DNA of 64,000 nt, from NCBI GenBank assembly GCA_965218425.1, contig OZ244621.1, positions 1,024,001-1,088,000 on the forward strand, given 5' to 3'. The position numbers and the translations under genes are program-made. Below are positions 5,700 to 17,565 of the stretch, piece after piece. This stretch comes from an uncultured Candidatus Binatia bacterium (GTDB taxonomy: Bacteria > Desulfobacterota > Binatia > UBA9968 > CAXXLF01). Each line of letters starts with the position of its first letter. Positions within the stretch are counted from its first letter, which is position 1. Below the pieces are notes generated by a model that was given only the letters and a program-made list of their open reading frames with translations, was not told the DNA's origin and did not search any database.

Positions 5700-6485
5700 C
5701 TATGACGGCATAAGCCCATTCTTTCTCAGAAAACCGCTCACGGCCTCATCGAACAGAGCTGGCTGCTCCAAGCAACAGGCATGCCCCGACCTTGGAATGG
5801 TGCGGTGCTCGGCCTTCTTTATCTTTTGACTCATTTCGATACTCCGCGGCCTGGCTCCGTCAAATTCGCCATTGATCACCAGCACGGGCATTTGAAGTTC
5901 TTCCAGACGAGGGGTCAGGTTCTTTCGCTCCAGGGCATTGAAGACCTCCCTCAAGGCCTGCGGTTTCAAGTGGGGATCCGTGTCCGTAAACAAACTGAGG
6001 GCGTATCCACCCAGCTTTGATTCCGCAAACTCCTCGCTAACAAGATTCTTGAGGTGTTCAATGTGGTACTTTTTGACTCCTTGATTCAGATACCCGTCCG
6101 TTCGAGTCTGATGCGGGCTCGGGCCACTGCTACACCCGACCATAATCAGCGCCTTGCAGAGATGGGGATGGTTCAATGCCATCTGGAGTACAAGGTTACC
6201 GCCCACACTGATCCCGCAGAGGATTGCCTCTTTGGCTTGCTCTTGACGGCAGACCCCCACGATGTCTTCCGCCATCTCAGCGACATTGGTTTCGGTGACG
6301 GGCTTGTCCGAACGCCCGTATCCTCGAATATCCACTGCGATGACTTTAAAAAACGTGGAGAACCGGGCAATCTGATATGTCCACAAGCGATGATCAAAAG
6401 GATTTGCATGGATGAGGACCATGGAAGAACCCTCCCCGGAGACCTCATAGTAGATCCGAATTCCATTGACTGAACAGTAGGGCAT
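5700..6485 (-). CDS. Alpha/beta hydrolase (3-oxoadipate enol-lactonase-like)
   Basis: DIRGYGRS, GISVGG elbow, GEFD, GHAC motifs. Confidence 0.85.
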   Translation of the reverse strand: MPYCSVNGIRIYYEVSGEGSSMVLIHANPFDHRLWTYQIARFSTFFKVIAVDIRGYGRSDKPVTETNVAEMAEDIVGVCRQEQAKEAILCGISVGGNLVLQMALNHPHLCKALIMVGCSSGPSPHQTRTDGYLNQGVKKYHIEHLKNLVSEEFAESKLGGYALSLFTDTDPHLKPQALREVFNALERKNLTPRLEELQMPVLVINGEFDGARPRSIEMSQKIKKAEHRTIPRSGHACCLEQPALFDEAVSGFLRKNGLMPS

Positions 6486-6953
6486 AACTCCCTCCCAAAC
6501 ATTATATTAGCAATTCGTACCTAATAAACAGCCATAAATTATTCGAAGCCCCGTACCTTCGTCAAGGGAATCGACGCTTACGAAATCGTAAGACTCCGAA
6601 AGTTAAGACCTTCGGTCCTGACAGGAGAGCGAGCGTACTTAAACGGGAGATGTCATCCCTTCGCTTCAGTAGTCCTTCGTCGAGAACGCTCATTCACCCA
6701 TCGAGGTAGGACTCGGGGGCCTGCCCCTCAGCGGGAGCCGATGGGCCTGTGTATCGAGGCCCCTTCATTTGATCTGACATGCCGAAATGGCTTGGACCTC
6801 CAGCATTGGACGTCTCCCTTTCTTCGGTGCAAGCCCCCTGCGGCCCAAACCGGAAAAGCCACGAAGGGGAGTGAGATGTAAGGCCGTGGGCATCGAACGC
6901 GCAGTTTCAGATATCCACCGGCCTATTGCCCGCGGCCGGGATTCGACGGTGAG

Positions 6954-7452
6954 ACTTGTATGGATGGATGCCAAAGCTGAGTCCAAGACGTCCTATGAGG
7001 CAAGCTCATTCAGGCTTCTTGGTCCGCCATCCGCCAGGATGCACAGCTTAGAGGATTTTACCGGCCGGTTTACCAAAGGCACCCAGGGGAGCGAGCAGCA
7101 AGCAAAGCCATTGTGGCGGTAGCGCGCAAACCGACCACGAGGATCTATGCCGTTTTGAAACAACAGCGGCCTTACGTGGTGAGGGAAAAAGTTCCTTCGG
7201 CTCCTTTGACTAAAGAGGAGACTGTGCCCCAGAGAACGACTTGACGGCTGAGAGAACCGGGAGAGATTAACTCCTGAGGGTTCGGAGTGTGAGACAGGGA
7301 GCCCGGGGCATTGTACCTGAGAGAGGGGCGCATCTTAACGAAGTGTGACGGCCCATGAGCCGTGCCACGAATTGCGGCAAGTCTCTCTTCGCTCGGGGAG
7401 CTTAAAAACATACCGGGACTATTGGCTCCGTGCCTTGACATCCACATAGCAG
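6954..7452 (+). mobile_element. Internally deleted IS110-family (IS1111-type) element
   Basis: 6999-7244 encodes GKLIQASWSAIRQDAQLRGFY...ASKAIVAVARKPTTRIYAVLKQQRPY, an IS110 transposase C-terminus; subterminal IRs TGGATGCCAA / TTGACATCCA; AG at both junctions (6952-53, 7451-52). Confidence 0.8.
7245..7452 (+). ncRNA. IS1111-type right non-coding region, candidate bridge/seek RNA
   Basis: ~208-nt non-coding stretch between the transposase stop and the right end, where IS1111 elements encode their guide RNA; internal pairing such as GAGAGA.../TCTCTC. Confidence 0.55.
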
Positions 7453-7518
7453 CTCTGCCGAACCGAAGACTCTCTCCACGAGGAGCCCTGAAGCTTCAGA
7501 GATTCATACGAGAGCAGG

Positions 7519-7757
7519 CTCGGTGGGTTACCCACTGCTCCGTCCATTTTTCGCTCAGTAAGCCCCTTAGCTCAGGACCGATGCAACGGGAGCTGGGTGC
7601 CTGAGCGGAGGATTGGTTCAGAGGCCTTGGAAGACCATGCGAAGCTGAGAAAAGGCGGCATCGACTGTTAGAGCGCAGCGAGTTTCGATCTGCCCGAAGC
7701 GAGCAGCTAAGGCATCCCGCCCAGGGGCCGCTGAAGCGAAGGGATGGCAGCTCCGGT
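7519..7757 (+). repeat. Structured repeat module B, copy 1
   Basis: Homologous to 22331-22549; shared CTCGGTGGGTT, TGCTCCGTCCAT, GCGAAGCTGAG, GCATCGACTGTT.GAGCGCAGCGAGTTTCGA, CTGAAGCGAAG. Confidence 0.8.
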
Positions 7758-7894
7758 AAACTCACTCTCCACTCGCTGTCAGCAACACACTTTTCACCAT
7801 GCCACAAATGTCGGGATAGAGCCCCGATTATCTTGACATTCACACCTCATCCATGATGAACTCAATCAGTTTCCTGATGGAAAGGAACGATGCT

Positions 7895-8986
7895 ATGGGA
7901 ACAATCATTGACGCGGATACTCATGTTTCGGAATCGGAAGCCATGTGGTCGCTCCTGGAAAAGGAGGCCTACCCTCGACGTCCACTTCTCATGCGTGTTC
8001 CCAACGACACCCAATACAAAGACCGAGACGCGTTCTGGCTCATCGATGGCCAGATAGTTCCGAAACCGGCGGGCCAAGCCGGGAGTGTGCTCATTACTCC
8101 GGCGGCGGCCTCCAATCAATCTAACAGAACTGACATCACCGTCGGATCCAGAGAGCTGACGGACCCGCAAGGACGCATTAAGGACATGGATCGCCTCAAC
8201 GTGGATGTTCAGGTGACATACCCAACGTTGTTTCTCGTTTATCTGACAGATGACATTGCTTTGGAGATCGCTCTTTGCAGGGCCTACAACAGGTGGATGA
8301 GCGAGGCCTGTGCCAACGGTGGCGGTCGCCTTCGATGGGTGGCGATCCCGCCGCTACGAAGTGTGGAGGAATCCTTAAACGAGATCAGGTGGGCCAAGGA
8401 TCACGGCGCGGTGGGGCTTTTCTTTCGTGGATTGGAAAAGGACCGCAATCTGGATGACCCGTACTTTTTCCCCATTTACAAGGCGGCCATGGAGCTGGAT
8501 TTACCTATCTGCATCCATACGGGATCCGGCTCCCCCGTGTTGTCGAATCTGTTCAACCTTGAACGCCACTCAGCGTTTGCCTCTGGACGCATTCCTCCGA
8601 TCATCGCCTTCAGAAATCTCGTGGCGAACAAAATTCCTGAGCTGTTTCCGACCCTCAAGTTTGGCTTCATCGAGGCCTCCGCCGGTTGGGTTCCCTATCT
8701 GCTGCACGCGCTGCGCCGCCAGTTGCAACCGCGATGGGCTGAGCTATCAAACGGCGACTTCCTTAAACGATACAGATTCTATATAGCCTGCGAAGCCGAC
8801 GAGGACATTGGCTATCTCGCCAGGTACATCGGTGAGGACAATCTGATCATTGGCTCCGACTATGGCCACAGGGACCCTTCGGAGGAAAAAGAGCTGGTCA
8901 AAACCATGAAATCCCGTGAAGACATTCCTGCTTTTCTTACGGACAAAATTCTTTTCGATAATCCAAGAAGCTTTTACGGGTTATAG
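7895..8986 (+). CDS. Amidohydrolase family 2 protein
   Basis: IIDADTHV, DMD...VDVQVTYPT, CRAYNRW, IHTG, FIEASAGW, GSDYGH motifs; start at 7895 chosen from AAAGGA RBS. Confidence 0.9.
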   Translation: MGTIIDADTHVSESEAMWSLLEKEAYPRRPLLMRVPNDTQYKDRDAFWLIDGQIVPKPAGQAGSVLITPAAASNQSNRTDITVGSRELTDPQGRIKDMDRLNVDVQVTYPTLFLVYLTDDIALEIALCRAYNRWMSEACANGGGRLRWVAIPPLRSVEESLNEIRWAKDHGAVGLFFRGLEKDRNLDDPYFFPIYKAAMELDLPICIHTGSGSPVLSNLFNLERHSAFASGRIPPIIAFRNLVANKIPELFPTLKFGFIEASAGWVPYLLHALRRQLQPRWAELSNGDFLKRYRFYIACEADEDIGYLARYIGEDNLIIGSDYGHRDPSEEKELVKTMKSREDIPAFLTDKILFDNPRSFYGL

Positions 8987-14730: not shown

Positions 14731-15447
14731 TTAAGGCTCTTTAAAGTGAAGCGGCAGCTTCGCCCCGTCGTGGTCCGGTCCCAAGATTCGCCGCAAACGA
14801 AGGCGACGCACCGCAACCCGTGCCTGGCTCCGATCCCGCTCCACACCAATCCAGGGGCGGCCCATCCGGGCAGCAACCGCACCAACGGCCCCGCTGCCAA
14901 AGAACGGATCCAGTACAATTCCCGGCGGGGACAGATTGAGCAGTTTACGAACAACTCCTGGCGGCATTGCGTCCCAGAGACTCCCCGGCGGCGACCACGG
15001 TATGGGCAGATGCCAGCAAAGCGCGGACTTTGGAGGTAGGCTTCGCACCCCGGCCTTGCAAAAGCGCAAGAGATAATTGATCCGGTCATCCCAACGCAAT
15101 GTGGATGGCTCCTCTGTCCAAAATGCCTTGGCCTGCAGCGACCATCCAGCCTTGCGGAGAGAGTCTGCTAGGATCCCATCCATTCCGATCCACTCCCGAC
15201 CGTCGTGACGGTCCCCCATGATGATCCAAAGTTCTCCACGAGGTGCGAGAACCCGCCGCCACTCCCGTCCATGTTCCGTGGCGATCTGCCGTGCATACCG
15301 AACGGCTGATTCCCTACCTTGCCCCCGTACCCAGTAAGGCGGACTGGTGAGGATTACCGCCACTGATCGGTCAGGAATGATCGGCACCTTCCGGCTATCC
15401 CCCACTAAGAGTATCCCTTTACCGTTTGTGCTCTGGTATCGAACCAA
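14731..15447 (-). CDS. Orphan beta-class N4C/N6A DNA methyltransferase-like protein, compact
   Basis: Motif IV TSPPY N-terminal and motif I VLDPFFGSG C-terminal, followed by GRPWIGVE; 238 aa. Confidence 0.8.
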   Translation of the reverse strand: MVRYQSTNGKGILLVGDSRKVPIIPDRSVAVILTSPPYWVRGQGRESAVRYARQIATEHGREWRRVLAPRGELWIIMGDRHDGREWIGMDGILADSLRKAGWSLQAKAFWTEEPSTLRWDDRINYLLRFCKAGVRSLPPKSALCWHLPIPWSPPGSLWDAMPPGVVRKLLNLSPPGIVLDPFFGSGAVGAVAARMGRPWIGVERDRSQARVAVRRLRLRRILGPDHDGAKLPLHFKEP

Positions 15448-17419: not shown

Positions 17420-17565
17420 CCCCTTCGCTCCAAGCCAGTAGTGCGACGAGGGGAGTGAAACGTCAGGCCGCAGGCATCGAACGTGTAGCTTCAAATATTC
17501 ACTGGTCTATTGCCCGCGGCAGGGCTTTTACGGTGACCTCAGCCGAACCGAGGCCCGCTCCCTGA
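17420..17565 (+). repeat. Repeat module A, uninterrupted copy (empty homologue of the IS110 target)
   Basis: Aligns to 6861-6953 joined to 7453-7480 (GGGGAGTGA..GT.AGGCCG..GGCATCGAACG...CTATTGCCCGCGGC...ACGGTGA.CTC.GCCGAACCGA). Confidence 0.75.

What the first reader, a model, noticed from the sequence alone, without database searches (positions are those of the whole stretch)
6952..7452. Miniature IS110/IS1111 element retaining both ends and the bridge-RNA region, with an empty target homologue in the same window
Seen: a 499-bp insert with AG at both junctions and subterminal IRs. Only the last ~82 transposase codons remain, followed by a ~208-nt non-coding tail. Removing the insert gives CGACGGTGAG-CTCTGCCGAACCGA, which matches the uninterrupted repeat at 17530-17551 (ACGGTGAC-CTCAGCCGAACCGA); that copy has AC instead of AG. 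Known: IS110-family recombinases use a bridge/seek RNA and a 2-nt core, IS1111-type elements encode the RNA downstream of the ORF, and IS621 targets REP repeats with a CT core (the reverse complement of AG). Inference: this is a non-autonomous guide-carrying derivative that targets a genomic repeat and might be mobilised in trans.
Basis: partly seen in the sequence, partly recalled or inferred. Interest (0 to 1): 0.75.

Follow-up and report, generated by a model that had tools for sequence, protein, structure and literature searches.

The report
Decayed guide-carrying miniature IS1111 element
This is a shrunken, single-copy and now decaying RNA-guided jumping gene that lost its enzyme but kept both ends and a guide RNA that still matches the short repeat it sits in; similar miniatures in related bacteria have multiplied, but this copy has no helper enzyme in its genome.

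Summary
The insert is real: 499 bp plus one AG core (6952-7452). It is an internal-deletion derivative of a ~1.43-kb IS1111-group element whose full-length relatives occur in the same order.

The right-end RNA carries target guides that track each relative's insertion site (20 distinct guides, 6.65/8 matches against 4.46 shuffled). A distant clade left out of that test also fits. Here the guides (7245-7252, 7289-7293) match a 27-bp REP-like unit found only in the host's family. An independent 385-bp miniature has the same guides and target.

This copy looks dead. It is single-copy, its donor guide and junction promoter are damaged, and no cognate transposase was found in the host. Spread after deletion is seen only in a relative, whose miniature sits at four sites.

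The closest precedent is MITEPpu9 (PMC12288879). The scan noted gene-less IS110 miniatures before, on other DNA. My paper searches did not find natural IS1111 miniatures that keep a matching guide.

The parts
6952..7452 (+). Miniature IS1111-group element (499 bp plus one AG core); about 930 bp of the ~1430-bp parent type are deleted
6952..6953 (+). Left AG core
6954..6995 (+). Left end; sub-terminal IR at 6959-6974, with one extra G against relatives that turns the junction -10 box TATGAT into TATGGA. The deletion joint lies somewhere in about 6980-7000
   Evidence: joint position inferred
6999..7244 (+). C-terminal remnant of the IS110-family recombinase (parent residues ~295 onward); no start codon, no DEDD domain, private stop at the end
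7203..7389 (+). Conserved seek/bridge RNA region: outer stem, target-binding loop with inner hairpin, multiloop with donor guide
7245..7252 (+). Right-target guide CGGCTGAG, complement of CTCAGCCG (7 of 8 with this site, 8 of 8 with the repeat consensus)
7289..7293 (+). Left-target guide GTGAG, identical to the top strand ending in the core
7371..7377 (+). Left-donor guide, damaged: ATTGCGG against ATRGCAG in 62 of 64 other rows
7434..7452 (+). Right end: -35 box TTGACA (7435-7440), sub-terminal IR (7434-7448), right AG core (7451-7452)
6940..6953 (+). Left half of the 27-bp REP-like target unit
7453..7465 (+). Right half of the 27-bp REP-like target unit
6691..6939 (+). Dispersed ~260-bp host repeat in which the target unit is nested; it resumes at 7466
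17527..17551 (+). Empty, diverged copy of the target unit (core AC instead of AG), in the same host repeat

Best explanation
An IS1111-group bridge/seekRNA element, with guides tuned to GTGAG|CTCAGCCG, inserted at the AG core of a family-specific 27-bp REP-like palindrome by RNA-guided recombination of its circular form. This mechanism is known for the family and inferred here. About 930 bp of the transposase gene were lost, before or after insertion (not resolvable). Both ends and the whole RNA region were kept. The cognate transposase is now gone from the host, and the copy is drifting neutrally. It is a fossil member of a recurring class of guide-carrying miniatures, some of which have multiplied in genomes that also hold full-length copies. 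Shown: ends, core, remnant, guide-target match, single copy, decay, no cognate transposase found. Inferred: RNA expression in the parent, the recombination mechanism, and present immobility.
For: Parents: intact 385-aa ORF with PF01548, PF02371 and NF033542 over cut-off, with the same ends and core. Guides: right guide against own target in 20 distinct guides, 6.65/8 versus 4.46 (sd 0.27), 0 of 20000 shuffles, 15 of 20 at 7/8 or better; left guide in 7 distinct guides, 52 of 20000. Held-out clade L028 (45% aa identity): 8/8 right, 6/6 left. The guide order is the one described for IS1111 (PMC11187229). Independent 385-bp miniature with the same guides at GTGAG|CTCAGCCG. The target 22-mer occurs in 5 of 5 family genomes and 0 of 56 others; reversed controls 0. 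Decay: 7 changes at >=90%-conserved RNA columns, rank 2 of 24, median 1, sister miniature 1, six of them transitions; junction -10 box TATGGA, unique among 31 complete insertions; 4 changes at conserved residues. Single copy. No cognate transposase found in G000-G004.
Against: No full-length parent with these exact guides was found, so the direct parent is inferred. Five of 20 guides match their own site poorly (L105 2/8, L002 4/8, L020 5/8, L047 5/8, L058 6/8). I picked the guide positions by eye from the alignment that I then tested, and kin are not independent. The RNA fold has almost no compensatory support (1 of 36 pairs; 34-276 of 500 shuffles reach the observed values), and the window RNA alone folds no better than shuffles (z -0.41). 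L057 and L102 have 6 conserved-column changes each, so the decay count is not extreme. Four full-length relatives from one genome also lack the final T of the -10 box.
Confidence: 0.8

Rival explanations
1. The window copy is a live MITE, mobilised in trans by the host's other IS110 (two copies) or by an incoming cognate element.
For: Both ends and the target guides are intact. Empty AG-core sites exist. Mini-IS movement with transposase and RNA in trans is shown for ISEc11 (PMC11187229). A relative's miniature shares one deletion joint at four sites.
Against: One copy only. The host IS110 is 21% identical over 159 aa. The donor guide and left end are damaged. No skip or circle joint was seen in four contig sets, which however drop rare variants.
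Confidence: 0.08
2. A plain in-situ deletion remnant. Retention of the RNA is chance, not a mark of any selected class of miniature.
For: Single copy with a private joint. Three of 6 miniatures lack the target half of the RNA. Several loci carry only a right-end stub (L046, L065, L085, L098, L100, L104). A separate 41-aa N-terminal scrap of the family lies at genome 1736097.
Against: This cannot be excluded for this copy and overlaps the best explanation. At class level, the G055 miniature was copied after its deletion, and all 6 miniatures keep both ends and the donor half of the RNA.
Confidence: 0.45
3. The RNA has been retained by the host as a regulatory small RNA, or the element supplies a promoter for the neighbouring amidohydrolase gene.
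For: It lies between divergently transcribed hydrolase genes, and the right end carries an outward TTGACA.
Against: The same-genus genome has both genes without the element. The 6-mer 17 bp after the -35 box is CCGAAC, not a -10 box (sequence). The changes fall on conserved RNA positions.
Confidence: 0.04

Closest known systems
MITEPpu9 / ISPpu9 of Pseudomonas putida KT2440 (PMC12288879; read: abstract, Introduction, Discussion part 1, passages)
   Same: IS110-family, transposase-less derivative with both ends, AG core, REP target and an sRNA; one published copy also keeps a transposase 3' fragment.
   Different: ISPpu9 is IS110 group (no sub-terminal IRs, RNA upstream). Ssr9 is described as a partner of an antisense regulator and as dispensable; the parts I read do not show it to be a guide. 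MITEPpu9 has eight copies, a cognate transposase and detected circles. The window element is IS1111 group, carries the target guides, and is single-copy and orphaned.
IS1111-group seekRNA elements ISEc11, ISPa11, ISKpn4 (PMC11187229; passages)
   Same: RNA downstream of the transposase, top-strand complement before bottom-strand match, junction promoter, natural retargeting (ISXne4), REP targeting (ISPa11).
   Different: Those are autonomous, and their mini-IS forms were engineered. This clade is at most about 34% identical to the best plasmid matches, and full-length members read KTNRLD at the third catalytic position.
IS621 / ISCro4 bridge recombinases (PMC11208160, section 12 and passages; PDB 8wt6, 9t56)
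   Same: Same recombinase family (E about 1e-12 to 1e-13), bipartite RNA and 2-nt core. The paper notes that IS1111 donor guides often lie in a multiloop, as predicted here.
   Different: IS621 carries its RNA in the left end and has short STIRs. The IS1111 paper reports the opposite guide order for the IS110 group.
IS1111 insertions into the REP inside QMITE2 (PMC5896051; passages)
   Same: An IS1111 element landing in a REP nested in a larger dispersed repeat.
   Different: Those are full-length, multi-copy elements in an unrelated host.

Membership tests
IS1111 group (IS110 family) | DEDD plus Transposase_20 recombinase | tested here: inconclusive
   Met in full-length relatives, with N at the third acidic position. 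The window keeps only residues ~295 onward, 74% identical: a derivative, not an autonomous member.
IS1111 group (IS110 family) | Sub-terminal inverted repeats (7-17 bp) | tested here: met
   TATG(A)TGGATGTC in the family; the window has one extra base and one mismatch.
IS1111 group (IS110 family) | Short left end, long right end with the non-coding RNA downstream of the transposase | tested here: met
   ORF starts about 90 bp from the left end; conserved ~187-nt RNA region and tail on the right.
IS1111 group (IS110 family) | Two target guides, top-strand complement 5' of bottom-strand match | tested here: met
   7245-7252 precedes 7289-7293; covariation and held-out clade.
IS1111 group (IS110 family) | Donor-matching segment in the RNA | tested here: inconclusive
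   Left donor guide ATRGCAG in 62 of 64 other rows, with one compensatory case (L009); damaged in the window. The right donor match is confounded with an RNA stem.
IS1111 group (IS110 family) | No target duplication beyond a short shared core | tested here: met
   Empty sites differ from the joined flanks only by point changes.
IS1111 group (IS110 family) | Promoter formed at the circle junction | tested here: inconclusive
   TTGACA-17-TATGAT in 22 of 31 complete insertions and TAnnnT in 26 of 31; the window reads TATGGA. Activity not testable.
IS1111 group (IS110 family) | RNA expressed and bound by the transposase; circular intermediate | not testable with these tools
   Only contig sets could be laid.
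Non-autonomous IS110-family MITE (MITEPpu9 type) | Both ends kept, transposase lost | tested here: met
Non-autonomous IS110-family MITE (MITEPpu9 type) | Several copies of the same short form in the genome | tested here: not met
   One copy in G000. Met by a different miniature in G055.
Non-autonomous IS110-family MITE (MITEPpu9 type) | Cognate transposase available in the genome | tested here: not met
   Only self, a 41-aa scrap and a ~22%-identical IS110 were found with this query and the two Pfam families.

The most novel reading that the evidence does not exclude
IS1111 miniatures that keep their whole RNA are guide parasites. They bring their own retargeted guide, load it on a transposase made by a relative with a different target, and so colonise a repeat that the helper does not use. 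Both elements known to carry the GTGAG|CTCAGCCG guides are independently derived miniatures, and no full-length element with these guides was found. The 316-bp miniature L009 shows a matched change in its donor guide and its own right end, as expected if its RNA acts on itself. The 166-, 167- and 419-bp forms, which keep only the donor half, would be a second class that borrows the target half.
Probability: 0.2. Interest if true: 0.7.

Novelty: new variant of a known kind. Interest (0 to 1): 0.4.

Why it matters
The locus itself is selfish-DNA debris. The clade around it is a clean natural series of guide-target pairs on one nearly invariant RNA scaffold, with 20 distinct right guides and at least five target types, useful for mapping IS1111 guide rules (two registers, wobble tolerance). 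It also shows repeated natural miniaturisation that keeps either the whole RNA or only its donor half. If such miniatures can redirect a helper transposase, target choice in this family would be inherited by the passenger rather than by the enzyme's own element, which bears on both IS evolution and bridge-recombinase engineering.

Tried and rejected
- Other copies or parents in the host: blastn, tblastn, end motifs and RNA motifs found only self and a 41-aa scrap.
- Rfam over 6400-7900: one sub-threshold hit outside the element, E 1.5, rejected.
- Pfam on the remnant alone: no family.
- The repeat finder did not list the short bulged sub-terminal IR; it is seen by direct comparison.
- CCTGAG and GGTTCGG at about 7268-7285 as guides: rejected; they are scaffold shared by elements with different targets.
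- The 13-mer defined by the guides alone is near chance in the host (10 sites within one mismatch against 5 for the reversed control); only the longer unit is specific.
- Single-sequence fold: not better than shuffles. Alignment fold: too conserved to show covariation.
- Full-length parent with the same guides: none in 106 right-end hits, in the metagenome scan (3 hits, one locus), in 123 order genomes (only a one-mismatch guide in G391) or in 401 phylum genomes. No right end in viral contigs.
- The orthologous locus in the same-genus genome lacks both the element and the target unit, so it is not a clean empty site.
- Expression: no RNA holder listed; no inference drawn.
- No earlier scan note by sequence.
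- Literature: four searches found no description of natural IS1111 miniatures with matching guides. Subscription journals, ISfinder and supplements were not seen.

Full report
OBSERVATION. The in-window empty homologue reads as quoted. In the whole host genome (4.46 Mb, one contig) the joined flanks match four empty sites within 5 mismatches of 25. Two of them, at 858376 and 1514531, differ by one base and keep the AG core. Contigs of runs X2 and X4, from two studies, cover 6810-7900 with no other letter and no gap; X6 and X7 cover parts, also without differences. No joint that skips or circularises the element is listed (contigs drop rare variants, and one run may be the source). The element has no second copy by blastn, tblastn or end and RNA motifs.

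PARENT FAMILY. Five of 60 relatives carry homologues, all in one sister family of the same order; 18 of 400 class genomes do. Full-length forms are mostly about 1.43 kb (1374-1549 bp) and encode a 385-aa protein with PF01548, PF02371 and NF033542 over cut-off. A scan for the right end gave 106 stretches in species-level genomes; their titles include Candidatus Binatia, Deltaproteobacteria, Nitrospira and Acidobacteriota, and some are chance hits without left end or RNA. The ends are nearly invariant, with a 12-bp sub-terminal inverted repeat. In 22 of 31 distinct complete insertions the joined ends give TTGACA-17-TATGAT. These are IS1111-group features (PMC11208160 section 12; PMC11187229 passages). 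The window element keeps about 30-45 bp of left end joined to parent residues ~295 onward (74% identity). The DEDD domain and most of the Transposase_20 domain are gone. The stop at 7242-7244 is a private C-to-T change, and the conserved RNA (7203-7389) overlaps the last codons.

GUIDES. Aligning right ends showed two variable patches in an 83%-identical scaffold. An 8-nt patch complements each element's right target flank, in one of two registers. A patch ending in the core matches the left flank. Of 65 rows with parsable motifs (two loci that may be unpublished were dropped), 35 had the right guide and a usable flank. Taking the first element for each of 20 distinct guides gives 6.65 of 8 matches, against 4.46 (sd 0.27) in 20000 shuffles, none reaching the observed value. 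Fifteen of 20 match at 7 or 8 of 8; five match at 2-6 of 8. For the left guide, 25 rows gave 7 distinct guides, and 52 of 20000 shuffles reached the observed score. I chose the positions by eye and kin are not independent, so the better check is the L028 clade (45% aa identity), which the parser had missed: it matches 8 of 8 on the right and 6 of 6 on the left at the homologous positions. The order, top-strand complement first, is that reported for IS1111 seekRNAs. In the window the guides are CGGCTGAG (7245-7252) and GTGAG (7289-7293). The consensus fold places both in the two strands of one internal loop and the left donor guide in a multiloop. That fold rests on invariant pairs: 98.6% of cells pair, but only 1 of 36 pairs has a compensatory change and the shuffle control is not beaten.

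TARGET. The left flank is a ~260-bp dispersed repeat with 67 hits, 52 of which reach its 3' part. Only 3 of the 52, plus the copy at 858376, carry a 27-bp insert at this point, and that insert is the target. It is an imperfect palindrome resembling the CCTGAG-n-GTCGAAG repeats that most relatives hit; the label REP-like is my inference. A 22-mer of it occurs in all 5 genomes of the host's family (13 copies in G001) and in none of 56 other genomes; reversed controls are 0. Its commonest form has CTCAGCCG, the exact complement of the right guide. A metagenome scan for right end plus this target found one locus in three assemblies (L136-L138). It is a 385-bp miniature, 80% identical, with a different deletion joint, the same two guides and a perfect right target. 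The guide-target pair is therefore confirmed by an independent element. No full-length element with these guides was found.

STATE OF THIS COPY. It shows private damage. The left end has an extra G, giving a junction -10 box unique among 31 insertions, although four relatives from one genome also lack the final T. The donor guide reads ATTGCGG against ATRGCAG in 62 of 64 other rows. There are 7 changes at columns at least 90% conserved (rank 2 of 24, median 1, L136 has 1; L057 and L102 have 6), six of them transitions and one breaking a stem pair. The remnant has four changes at conserved residues. The host's only intact IS110, in two copies, is 21% identical over 159 aa. A search with the parent protein found no cognate transposase in G000-G004, only a 41-aa scrap in the host. 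The same-genus genome has both flanking genes with neither element nor target unit.

THE CLASS. Six of 31 distinct complete insertions are miniatures: 166, 167, 316, 385, 419 and 499 bp (assemblies break at multi-copy long elements, so miniatures may be over-represented). Three keep the whole RNA and three only the donor half. In G055 the 316-bp form shares its deletion joint and first ~130 bp, with one base different, at four different left flanks. Three of these end at contig breaks, and the two unassigned right ends in that genome differ from the complete copy's right end, so their full structure is unknown. G055 also holds an intact full-length element. This is good evidence that such miniatures were copied after deletion. 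The complete copy has a matched change in its donor guide and its right end, a single case. Several right-end-only stubs also exist, so not every remnant keeps both ends.

COMPARISON WITH WHAT IS KNOWN. Transposase-less IS110-family derivatives with an AG core, a REP target, an sRNA and detected circles are published as MITEPpu9 (PMC12288879: abstract, Introduction, Discussion part 1, passages). Natural retargeting, REP targeting and movement of engineered mini-IS with RNA in trans are published for IS1111 (PMC11187229, passages). IS1111 insertion into a REP inside a larger repeat is published too (PMC5896051, passages). Four searches did not show natural IS1111 miniatures carrying a guide that matches their site; the library omits most subscription papers, and I saw no supplements. 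Earlier scan notes describe gene-less IS110 miniatures on other DNA and a ~250-bp hairpin repeat in this genome; these are unchecked leads.

VERDICT. The feature is real and was correctly identified, and the guide-target link is now supported by covariation. This copy is most likely an orphaned fossil (0.8). It works like a MITEPpu9-type passenger but fails two membership tests in its own genome (multi-copy, helper present). Interest is 0.4. The guide-parasite reading remains open at about 0.2. The reported counts exclude the loci that are, or may be, from unpublished genomes G344 and G354; only the genome tallies include those genomes.

Noticed in passing
L002:1685-2839 (-) and other full-length relatives: Every full-length transposase whose longest frame covered the motif reads KTNRLD, with N where the third catalytic D of the DEDD motif is expected (the ISCro4 alignment has D there). 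The clade still has multi-copy members, so it appears active.
   Followed up: partly
L078 (166 bp), L086 (167 bp), L038 (419 bp): Miniatures that keep both ends and only the donor-binding half of the RNA; possible natural half-bridge elements.
   Followed up: partly
L009:1503-1688 and its right end: The donor guide and the element's right end carry the same change (ATAACAG), the only such case among 65 rows.
   Followed up: partly
L032 and L082: Tandem duplication of the right end (118 and 88 bp apart), each copy ending in the AG core.
   Followed up: no
window 6691-6939 and 7518-7760: Two copies of a ~260-bp dispersed repeat in opposite orientation flank the element; 67 hits genome-wide and many in same-family genomes.
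   Followed up: partly
G000:C1:1736097-1736219: 41-aa N-terminal scrap of the same transposase family (49% identity) without a recognisable left end.
   Followed up: partly
G000:C1:2784810-2786613 and 4378150-4379953: Two 99.3%-identical copies of an unrelated ~1.8-kb IS110 element with an intact 434-codon frame.
   Followed up: partly
G000:C1:2768229 (-) and 226133 (-): Two perfect, unoccupied 13-bp matches to the window's guides inside another duplicated sequence.
   Followed up: no
L105 / L143 (G391:C969): Full-length element whose right guide is one base from the window's but matches its own site poorly (2 of 8 ungapped); possible off-target insertion or intermediate in retargeting.
   Followed up: partly
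G000:C1, e.g. 4218, 56750, 1679330: A high-copy identical sequence (about 20 hits) surfaced in a motif scan; probably another insertion sequence.
   Followed up: no
window 14731-15447 (-): ORF with an N6/N4 DNA methylase match among catabolic genes.
   Followed up: no
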